DNA from: a plasmid
Length of the DNA: 64,000 nucleotides
Reading direction: 5' to 3' (one strand)
Sequence record: NZ_CP118992.1
The notes under the pieces: model-generated
What the model was told of the DNA's origin: nothing
The model's input: only the letters and a program-made list of their open reading frames with translations
Database searches by the model: none
Part shown: positions 3,563 to 4,292 of the stretch, one piece after another
Position numbering within the stretch: the first letter of the stretch is position 1
How the letters are laid out: the number at the start of each line of letters is the position of its first letter
Position numbers and translations under genes: made by a program

Positions 3563-4086
3563 TATCAGTGTTCAAAAAACGGTGGCAAAGCAGGCAGTGA
3601 GCGGCATTTGTTGGTGTTTCATCGTGGTTTTCTGGCGCATTGCTCGCTCTGATGAGGATGCGACCACCCCCTTGAAGACCATTTTTTTCATGGACTGTAA
3701 TCCATAATCTGCTCAGCTTCCTGTGATCCGGCTCCATAGCAGCCAGCATGAAACGCGCTGGAGCGATGTAACGTGACAGGCGCACCCTGACCATTGGCAA
3801 GCATGTGATCGTGGCTCAGGGGCCATTTGCGGGCCGCTATGCGACTATTCCGCGTCATGGGCTGGGTGCCGGTTTTTGCTTTTATCACTTCAGAAAGAAA
3901 TTTCGTAGAAAGTGATAGCCACGCGGCAGGCGGTGGGCAACGCGAAGCGTTGTCCACGGACTGATGCGTCTTCCGGTGGGGAACCTGCGGATCGCGAGCT
4001 TTGCGAGCGACTGTCCATAGGTGCGAAGCGCCTGTGGGCAGGCAGGTTGTCCACGGGGCGCGTCAGCGCAACTACTTGTTTTAGAT

Positions 4087-4131
4087 CTACTTGAAAGAAA
4101 GAGCTACTTGGAAGAAAGAGCTACTTGGGCG
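4087..4131. repeat. 2.6 tandem copies of a 17-bp unit CTACTTG(A/G)AAGAAAGAG
   Basis: ctacttgaaagaaagag ctacttggaagaaagag ctacttgggcg, read directly. Confidence 0.7.
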
Positions 4132-4171
4132 CGGGTGGGTGGTGCCCGGAAAGCCCCACTGGGCGGGGGTT

Positions 4172-4237
4172 GTTAGTGTTTCAGCGTAGTTTATTTGTTA
4201 GTGTTTCATCGTAGGAATAGTTAGTGTTTCATCGTAG
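4172..4237. repeat. three iteron-like direct repeats GTTAGTGTTTCA(G/T)CGTAG spaced 25 and 23 bp; a related copy at 3610-3627
   Basis: Direct repeats at 4172, 4197 and 4220; spacing of about two helical turns is typical of plasmid iterons. Related GTTGGTGTTTCATCGTGG at 3610 and GTTCA(A/G)AAAACGGTGG motifs at 3574 and 4250. Confidence 0.5.
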
Positions 4238-4292
4238 CCCTGCCGACTGTTCAGAAAACGGTGGTTTGTTGGACAGTTGCCGCAAGGGGCGG

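What the first reader, a model, noticed from the sequence alone, without database searches (positions are those of the whole stretch)
3570..4290. Iteron-like direct repeats in a 1.5 kb non-coding stretch; both candidate rep genes are truncated
Three 18-bp repeats GTTAGTGTTTCA(G/T)CGTAG lie at 23- to 25-bp spacing (4172-4237). A related copy is at 3610. Tandem 17-mers (4087-4131) and GTTCA(A/G)AAAACGGTGG boxes are also present. This is the classic architecture of an iteron-type oriV. No intact initiator gene is nearby. The two rep-like genes in the window (14526 and 17591) are each cut by transposon IRs. The replicon may therefore depend on a rep outside this window, or this is a dead origin in an integrated element.
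Basis: partly seen in the sequence, partly recalled or inferred. Interest (0 to 1): 0.6.

Follow-up and report, generated by a model that had tools for sequence, protein, structure and literature searches.

The report
Orphan plasmid replication origin without initiator
The repeats are a real, well-conserved plasmid replication origin of the IncW/PromA type whose own initiator gene (repA) has been lost by recombination between the repeats, so it is most likely a leftover of a second replicon in a mosaic resistance plasmid rather than the origin the plasmid uses.

Summary
Four same-strand 18-mers lie at 3610, 4172, 4197 and 4220, against 0.01 expected by chance. A 17-bp tandem repeat sits in an AT-rich dip (4083-4128), and two 17-bp boxes are at 3569 and 4248.

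Comparison shows that 3610-4237 is the complete cis-acting part of an iteron origin. It belongs to an uncharacterised clade of RepA_C (PF04796) replicons. The same module lies directly downstream of repA in three close relatives, and in rearranged form around repA in a fourth. Four distant plasmids, with RepA about 70% identical, keep the same iteron core and motifs, and three of them keep the DnaA boxes. IncW and PromA iterons share the half-site CACGnTGAAA and the layout of one lone iteron plus a tandem array.

In the window repA is missing. Related plasmids carry 0, 1, 4 or 10 iterons, which fits recombination between the direct repeats. The backbone is pRSB101-like. Its own initiator (Replicase+PriCT_1) begins just past the window end, and a sister plasmid carries it with no iterons at all.

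Verdict: an orphan origin, probably silent. It is a new member of a known kind, of modest interest.

The parts
3569..3585 (+). Left flanking box TGTTCAAAAAACGGTGG, the boundary of the module in the pRSB101-like backbone.
   Evidence: In pHD6448-1 the sequence runs from this box straight into the sequence that follows the right box, so 3586-4247 is absent there.
3610..3627 (-). Distal lone iteron. On the repA-sense strand it reads CCACGATGAAACACCAAC.
   Evidence: The same lone copy lies 562-563 bp from the tandem array in L008 and L024, which carry repA.
3628..3948 (.). Spacer 'X' between the distal iteron and the DnaA-box cluster. No conserved gene was found in it.
   Evidence: It is present at 93-98% identity in L008, L024 and L006, and absent from the distant relatives. 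The short ORFs here have no Pfam hit. The 89-aa ORF has only 3 near-identical database hits.
3936..4056 (.). DnaA-box cluster: TTGTCCACG at 3950 and 4047, and CTGTCCATA at 4011. It includes a small palindrome, CAACGC-GAA-GCGTTG, at about 3938-3953.
   Evidence: Two of the only three TTRTCCACR matches in the 64 kb window lie here. This stretch is 100% identical to L008. Aligned boxes in Bordetella, Thauera and Xanthomonas are closer to TTATCCACA, and the palindrome shows paired changes.
4060..4131 (.). AT-rich putative unwinding element with 17-bp tandem repeats. On the repA-sense strand it holds four CAAGTAG motifs.
   Evidence: TRF reports 4083-4128, period 17, 2.7 copies. GC is 0.37 at 4070-4129, against 0.62-0.68 in the adjacent windows. 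CCAAGTAG is invariant in all six aligned origins.
4132..4171 (.). GC-rich spacer between the AT-rich element and the iteron array.
   Evidence: GC is 0.62-0.67. It is conserved in L008 and L024.
4172..4237 (-). Tandem array of three iterons (4172-4189, 4197-4214, 4220-4237). On the repA-sense strand each reads CTACG(A/C)TGAAACACTAAC.
   Evidence: The same core ACGATGAAACAC occurs with the same orientation relative to repA and 23-25 bp spacing in L004, L008, L010, L011, L012, L020, L024 and L029.
4248..4264 (+). Right flanking box TGTTCAGAAAACGGTGG. Backbone sequence shared with IncP-6 plasmids resumes here.
   Evidence: The junction from last iteron to box is the same in pK521-KPC, in IncP-6 plasmids and in L009.

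Best explanation
Window 3610-4237 is the cis-acting origin (oriV) of a theta-replicating iteron replicon. Its initiator is a RepA_C-family protein related to IncW and PromA RepA.

In the intact replicon repA lies on the window's minus strand, just to the right of the tandem iterons. By analogy with studied iteron plasmids, RepA monomers would bind the 18-bp iterons and host DnaA would bind the neighbouring boxes. Together they would open the AT-rich 17-mer region so that the helicase can load.

In this window repA has been removed. Also gone are its promoter, the repA-proximal iteron that is fused to a DnaA box, and one tandem iteron. The most likely cause is recombination between directly repeated origin segments. 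What remains is an origin without an initiator.

The host plasmid is pRSB101-like. It replicates with its own, unrelated Rep (Replicase+PriCT_1), whose gene starts just beyond the window end. The origin is therefore most likely silent. It could fire, or titrate RepA and cause incompatibility, only if a plasmid supplying the matching RepA is in the same cell.

Shown: the anatomy, the conservation, the linkage to repA elsewhere and the absence of repA here. Inferred: RepA binding, DnaA binding, unwinding, silence and the route of deletion.
For: 1. The repeats are real and non-random.

2. The module has the canonical order: iterons, GC-rich spacer, AT-rich repeats (GC 0.37), clustered DnaA-like boxes.

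3. In L024 (repA intact, 94.6% identical to pK521 RepA), L029 and L008 the same module at 93-94% identity lies directly downstream of repA. In pK521-KPC, repA sits between parts of the module.

4. Four plasmids or contigs with RepA only about 69-73% identical keep the iteron core ACGATGAAACAC in the same orientation as repA, at 23-25 bp spacing, and the invariant CCAAGTAG motif. They are from Xanthomonas citri, Bordetella flabilis, Pseudomonas savastanoi and Thauera. Three of them also keep the DnaA boxes; in P. savastanoi that stretch does not align.

5. IncW pIE321 iterons (TATCCACGTGAAATCGCTAAT) and PromA pTer331 iterons (CACGCTGAAAGTGTCTTGCGCG) share the half-site CACGnTGAAA. Both also share the layout of one lone iteron, about 68-69 bp (57-81 bp in this clade), then a tandem array. 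RepA of this clade is about 40-41% identical to theirs.

6. The window holds no intact RepA_C or Replicase gene.

7. pHD6448-1 has the same backbone and an intact backbone rep but no iterons, owing to a box-to-box deletion. pGES5 also has none.

8. The window ends at the base before the backbone rep ATG.

9. Iteron copy number is 0, 1, 4 or 10 in otherwise near-identical contexts. The unit 3610-4237 is tandemly duplicated in pHN21SC1505-3.
Against: No experiment shows that this module replicates or binds RepA, and no member of this RepA clade appears to have been studied.

The window lacks the repA-proximal iteron fused to a DnaA box (TTATCCACGATGAAAC) that every repA-linked relative has. Even with RepA supplied in trans, function is therefore uncertain.

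In the distant relatives the iterons lie 1-2 kb from repA, so adjacency is not strict.

About 5 kb or more of the source plasmid lies outside the window and could not be read. A cognate repA elsewhere on it, or on a co-resident plasmid, cannot be excluded.

The ancestral arrangement I propose, with repA flanked by two origin copies, was not observed directly.
Confidence: 0.82

Rival explanations
1. The origin is functional and is served in trans by a cognate RepA_C initiator. This initiator would be encoded on the unread part of the same plasmid or on a co-resident large plasmid of the L008/L024 type. The element would then act as a second, helper-dependent origin.
For: In the related PromA family oriV lies about 5.1 kb from repA, so action at a distance is normal in this superfamily (PMC4290620). 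The cis elements are highly conserved: the DnaA-box stretch is 100% identical to L008. L008-type plasmids occur in Aeromonas, the apparent host range of this mosaic.
Against: The unread part of the plasmid corresponds in sister plasmids to the backbone rep and the mob-proximal genes, with no RepA_C gene. The repA-proximal iteron is missing. Sister plasmids do well with 0 or 1 iterons.
Confidence: 0.1
2. The repeats are the vegetative origin used by the pRSB101-like backbone Rep that lies just outside the window.
For: The module lies on the same backbone as that rep in several plasmids.
Against: The backbone Rep carries Replicase+PriCT_1 domains. From my own knowledge, not tested here, this is the primase-like initiator type that does not use iterons. 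pHD6448-1 and pGES5 have the same rep and no iterons. The iterons travel with RepA_C genes across four genera. A separate candidate origin with a DnaA box and 65-bp inverted repeats lies directly downstream of the backbone rep in L006.
Confidence: 0.03
3. The orphan iteron array is retained, and sometimes expanded, because it works as an incompatibility decoy. It would titrate or handcuff the RepA of competing large plasmids and displace them.
For: Copy number ranges up to 10 iterons in pHN21SC1505-3 without any repA. The cis module is very well conserved although repA is gone. From my own knowledge, not tested here, cloned iterons are known to exert incompatibility in studied systems.
Against: Variation in both directions (0, 1, 4, 10 copies) looks like neutral recombination between repeats. 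More than 120 IncP-6 plasmids keep only a single iteron. There are no data on selection.
Confidence: 0.05

Closest known systems
IncW oriV (pSa/R388/pIE321 type) with RepA (RepA_C, PF04796)
   Same: The initiator is of the same Pfam family: RepA of this clade is about 40% identical. The origin lies downstream of repA. Iterons begin with (TTAT)CCACG-TGAAA. One lone iteron fused to a DnaA box lies about 69 bp before a tandem array with 22-bp phasing.
   Different: The 3' half of the iteron differs (TCGCTAAT against CAC(T/C/A)AAC), so initiator specificity is probably different. Spacing here is 23-25 bp. In the window repA is absent, as is the iteron fused to a DnaA box.
PromA oriV (pMOL98, pSFA231, pTer331)
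   Same: The RepA_C initiator is about 41% identical. There are four iterons, CACGCTGAAAGTGTCTTGCGCG, arranged as 1 lone, 68 bp, then 3 tandem at 22-23 bp. The origin has a DnaA box and an AT-rich region (PMC4290620).
   Different: The PromA oriV lies about 5 kb from repA. The 3' half of the iteron is unrelated. PromA plasmids are self-transmissible with a different backbone.
Uncharacterised RepA_C replicon of large Aeromonas-type plasmids (A. veronii FC951 plasmid NZ_CP032840.1, contig JBAYRD010000006.1) and of pK521-KPC
   Same: The origin module is 93-94% identical over 3610-4237. It has the same distal iteron, spacer X, DnaA boxes, 17-mers and tandem iterons.
   Different: Those loci carry repA (intact in L024, L029 and pK521-KPC), plus one more tandem iteron and the proximal iteron. 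The window has none of these.
pRSB101-like mobilizable plasmids (pHN21SC1505-3/pHNLW22-2, pGES5, pHD6448-1)
   Same: The backbone of the window is of this type. Positions 1-3585 and 4248 onward are 99% identical, and the window end matches the region just upstream of rep (PMC9431256).
   Different: These plasmids carry 10, 0 and 0 iterons respectively. None in the plasmid collection has exactly the window's single repA-less unit.

Membership tests
Iteron-type theta oriV of the RepA_C (IncW/PromA-related) superfamily | Several directly repeated initiator-binding sites of about 17-22 bp, phased at about two helical turns. | tested here: met
   There are three tandem 18-mers at 25 and 23 bp spacing, plus one lone copy. 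Chance expectation is 0.01.
Iteron-type theta oriV of the RepA_C (IncW/PromA-related) superfamily | Iteron sequence related to that of family members and conserved among orthologous replicons. | tested here: met
   The core ACGATGAAACAC is shared with eight repA-linked loci. The half-site CACGnTGAAA is shared with IncW pIE321 and PromA pTer331.
Iteron-type theta oriV of the RepA_C (IncW/PromA-related) superfamily | AT-rich unwinding region with short repeats, and DnaA boxes next to the iterons. | tested here: met
   GC is 0.37 at 4070-4129, with 17-mer repeats there. TTGTCCACG occurs twice and CTGTCCATA once within 3950-4055. The AT-rich CCAAGTAG motif is invariant in all six aligned origins. 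The DnaA boxes align in five of them, not in P. savastanoi.
Iteron-type theta oriV of the RepA_C (IncW/PromA-related) superfamily | A cognate RepA_C initiator gene in the same replicon. | tested here: not met
   Tblastn of the cognate RepA against the window finds only a 32%-identical truncated gene at 17903-18259. The remaining large ORFs of unknown function that I scanned against Pfam include no Rep. The part of the plasmid outside the window could not be read.
Iteron-type theta oriV of the RepA_C (IncW/PromA-related) superfamily | RepA-dependent autonomous replication and RepA binding to the repeats. | not testable with these tools
   This needs cloning, a supply of RepA in trans, and binding assays.
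Origin of the pRSB101-like backbone Rep (Replicase+PriCT_1) | Present in all plasmids that replicate with this Rep. | tested here: not met
   pHD6448-1 and pGES5 carry the rep gene but no iteron copy.
IncP-6 (Rms149/pCOL-1) oriV | Location next to the IncP-6 rep gene. | tested here: not met
   IncP-6 plasmids hold a single iteron copy downstream of the mob and toxin-antitoxin genes. In pCOL-1 this is about 20 kb from rep (rep at 8066-9442, iteron at about 29377-29412).

The most novel reading that the evidence does not exclude
The repA-less origin is not junk but a functional satellite or decoy. In this reading, pRSB101-like and IncP-6 resistance plasmids keep, and sometimes amplify to 10 copies, the iterons of a large Aeromonas/Xanthomonas-type plasmid. 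They would do so either to borrow its RepA as a second origin or to displace it through iteron-mediated incompatibility.
Probability: 0.1. Interest if true: 0.55.

Novelty: new member of a known kind. Interest (0 to 1): 0.3.

Why it matters
The work assigns a function to a repeat block that recurs, in different copy numbers, in clinically relevant mobilizable resistance plasmids. These include pRSB101-like plasmids carrying KPC, GES or tmexCD, and more than 120 IncP-6 plasmids.

It defines the origin and iteron consensus of a RepA_C replicon clade that has not been typed. The clade is found in Aeromonas, Xanthomonas, Bordetella, Pseudomonas and Thauera plasmids.

It also gives a clear natural series showing how recombination between iterons deletes, permutes and duplicates replicon parts.

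In practice, it warns that replicon typing by iterons or oriV alone would mislabel these plasmids. It also predicts a possible incompatibility with plasmids that carry the cognate RepA.

Tried and rejected
- **pMOS94 lineage as backbone:** rejected. It has different iterons and a MOBF11 relaxase.
- **Protein-coding explanation for spacer X:** rejected. The ORFs have no Pfam hit, and the 89-aa ORF has only 3 near-identical hits among 5.8 billion proteins.
- **Known RNA family in 3200-4900:** none found.
- **Promoter and terminator scan of 3300-4500:** nothing informative. One weak promoter-like site lies inside the miniature transposon-like element.
- **Genome-wide pattern scan for paired iteron cores:** it returned 21 stretches. 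Only three (L020, L024, L029) encode a RepA homologue by tblastn, and I did not examine the other 18 further.
- **pRSB101 record:** not in the plasmid collection. A literature search for its origin gave nothing usable.

Full report
**Observation**

- The 18-mers lie at 3610-3627, 4172-4189, 4197-4214 and 4220-4237, all on the + strand. The three tandem copies start 25 and 23 bp apart.
- With up to three mismatches the motif occurs four times in the 64 kb window, all of them here. Shuffles give 0.01 expected.
- Tandem Repeats Finder reports a 17-bp unit in 2.7 copies at 4083-4128, and the iteron array at 4170-4237.
- The boxes TGTTCA(A/G)AAAACGGTGG are at 3569-3585 and 4248-4264.
- The composition profile shows an AT-rich dip (GC 0.37) at 4070-4129, between GC-rich flanks.
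- Two of the only three matches to TTRTCCACR in the whole window fall at 3950 and 4047. A third DnaA-like box, CTGTCCATA, is at 4011.
- No Rfam family matches 3200-4900, and the short ORFs in the stretch have no Pfam hits.

**Context: the backbone**

- Positions 1-3585 and 4248-6252 are 99.4% identical to Aeromonas veronii plasmid pHD6448-1. Positions 1-3929 are 99.3% identical to pHN21SC1505-3.
- These belong to the untypeable, mobilizable pRSB101-like plasmids (PMC9431256).
- Upstream of the finding lie a MOBP relaxase with an LPD7 domain (92-2338) and an AbiTii-like gene.
- The initiator of this backbone is a 398-aa protein with Replicase and PriCT_1 domains.
- The last 235 bases of the window (63766-64000) align with the last 240 bp before the ATG of that rep gene in both sister plasmids, whose records start at rep. 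The backbone initiator should therefore begin immediately after the window end.
- The rest of the window is a dense mosaic of transposons, insertion sequences and accessory genes.

**What the repeats belong to**

In pK521-KPC the same 18-mers and boxes flank a 276-aa RepA of Pfam family RepA_C. This gene lies on the strand opposite to the iterons as written in the window.

In the A. veronii FC951 plasmid, a 93% identical copy of 3610-4237 is followed by one more tandem iteron, then a lone iteron, then the 3' end of the same repA. The gene is annotated in two pieces there.

A pattern scan of GTDB genomes for two phased iteron cores found three further loci that encode this RepA.
- In contig JBAYRD010000006.1 (L024) the gene is intact and 94.6% identical to the pK521 RepA. 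Reading downstream from repA, this contig has a lone iteron after 98 bp and four tandem iterons 70 bp further on. The AT-rich and DnaA-box region follows, then a distal lone iteron 563 bp away. This is the window's layout plus repA.
- L029 carries a RepA equally close to that of pK521 (94.6%).
- L020, from a Thauera genome, carries a RepA 73% identical to it.

**Deeper conservation**

RepA proteins 69-73% identical occur on large plasmids of Xanthomonas citri, Bordetella flabilis and Pseudomonas savastanoi, and on the Thauera contig L020.
- Each has three to five direct repeats with the core ACG(A/C)TGAAACAC. They are in the same orientation as repA, at 23-25 bp spacing, usually with one lone copy 57-81 bp away. 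Some copies are fused to a DnaA box, as TTATCCACGATGAAAC.
- An alignment of six origins shows the iteron cores and the motif CCAAGTAG in the AT-rich part as invariant. Several DnaA-like boxes align in five of the six; in P. savastanoi that stretch does not align.
- A small palindrome next to one box changes by paired substitutions in Thauera and Bordetella.

This degree of conservation, linked to one initiator lineage, is the main evidence that the module is that lineage's origin.

**Relation to known families**

The RepA of this clade is about 41% identical to PromA RepA (pTer331) and about 40% identical to IncW RepA (pIE321).
- IncW pIE321 has iterons TATCCACGTGAAATCGCTAAT downstream of repA, with one lone copy 69 bp before a 22-bp-phased array.
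- PromA pTer331 has four iterons CACGCTGAAAGTGTCTTGCGCG, arranged as one lone copy, 68 bp, then three in tandem.
- Published work places the PromA oriV about 5.1 kb from repA, with iterons, a DnaA box and an AT-rich region (PMC4290620).

All three groups share the half-site CACGnTGAAA and the same layout. They differ in the other half of the iteron, which suggests distinct initiator specificities. This last point is an inference.

**Why the origin is an orphan here**

Tblastn of the cognate RepA and of the backbone Rep against the whole window finds only two fragments.
- Positions 17903-18259 are 32% identical to RepA residues 2-113.
- Positions 14532-15011 are 37% identical to Rep residues 26-178.

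Pfam confirms that both ORFs are truncated. The first runs into a Tn21-type inverted repeat. The second ends beside an IS1182-family element, a family name taken from the annotation of a matching plasmid. The remaining large ORFs of unknown function that I scanned include no Rep.

In the window the last tandem iteron is followed directly by the right box. The same junction is seen in pK521-KPC, in IncP-6 plasmids and in a Pseudomonas juntendi megaplasmid fragment.

**The natural series of rearrangements**

| Plasmid | State of the module |
|---|---|
| pHD6448-1 | Lacks 3586-4247 exactly, from box to box |
| IncP-6 plasmids (Rms149, pCOL-1 and more than 120 others) | A single iteron, far from their own rep |
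| pK521-KPC | Lacks spacer X and the DnaA cluster; has repA followed by a second partial origin copy, a circular permutation of the L024 arrangement |
| pHN21SC1505-3 | The unit 3610-4237 is tandemly duplicated, giving 10 iterons and no repA |

All of these forms can be derived by recombination between directly repeated iterons, origin segments or boxes. They would start from an ancestor in which repA was flanked by origin sequences. That ancestor is inferred, not observed.

**Is it the backbone's origin?**

No.
- pHD6448-1 and pGES5 carry the backbone rep without any iteron.
- From my own knowledge, not tested here, the Replicase/PriCT_1 type of initiator does not work through iterons.
- A different candidate origin lies directly downstream of that rep in pHN21SC1505-3. 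It has a DnaA box within 65-bp inverted repeats.

**Mechanism and status**

By analogy with studied iteron plasmids, RepA monomers would bind the iterons and DnaA would bind its boxes. The AT-rich 17-mers would then melt. None of this has been tested for this clade.

Without the cognate RepA the origin should be silent. With a co-resident plasmid that supplies RepA, it might fire or might exert incompatibility.

The loss of the repA-proximal iteron makes even trans-activation uncertain.

**Verdict**

The feature is a new member of a known kind: an IncW/PromA-type iteron origin of an untyped RepA_C clade, preserved here as a repA-less remnant. Interest is modest.

Noticed in passing
window 2387-2424, 3343-3358, 3547-3562, 62318-62372, 63324-63349: Palindromes of the type GATAGCTAGCTATC recur around the AbiTii-like gene and on both sides of the backbone parA operon. 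In pHN21SC1505-3 they sit upstream of parA and as a tandem pair after the small gene that follows parA. They look like operator or centromere sites of the backbone partition or regulatory protein.
   Followed up: partly
window 2447-3344: The AbiTii-like gene is split into two overlapping ORFs. A T-run at about 2689-2696 is one base longer than in pGES5, where the gene is an intact 293 codons. pHN21SC1505-3 shares the frameshift.
   Followed up: partly
window 4446-4818: A miniature element of about 370 bp is bounded by two different Tn3-family 38-bp inverted repeats and has a res-like sequence inside. It is shared at 98.8% identity with IncP-6 KPC plasmids. I saw no matching 5-bp target duplication, and an IS4-family element follows.
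   Followed up: partly
window 3938-3953: A small palindrome, CAACGC-GAA-GCGTTG, overlaps a DnaA-like box. The aligned sites in Thauera (CAACAC...GTGTTG) and Bordetella (CGACAC...GTGTCG) keep the symmetry through paired changes. This suggests a site for a dimeric protein or a hairpin within the origin.
   Followed up: no
window 63766-64000: The window ends exactly at the base before the ATG of the backbone rep gene of sister plasmids. The source record is therefore probably a circular plasmid of about 70 kb, numbered from rep, with the window as its last 64 kb.
   Followed up: yes
window 16611-18274: A parA-like gene (16611-17252) is followed by a truncated RepA_C gene (17591-18274). This gene is only 32% identical to the RepA that matches the iterons, so it is a remnant of yet another replicon.
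   Followed up: partly
window 33673-38489: Three tandem ORFs of identical length (472 aa each, at 33673, 35372 and 37071) match IS66-like ISAs21 transposase copies in Aeromonas plasmids.
   Followed up: no
L006 (NZ_CP091084.1) 1237-1983: Directly downstream of the backbone rep lie two 65-bp inverted repeats (91% complementary, 617 bp apart). Each carries a DnaA-like box (GTTATCCACG) and AAGTAG motifs. This is a candidate origin for the pRSB101-like Rep.
   Followed up: no
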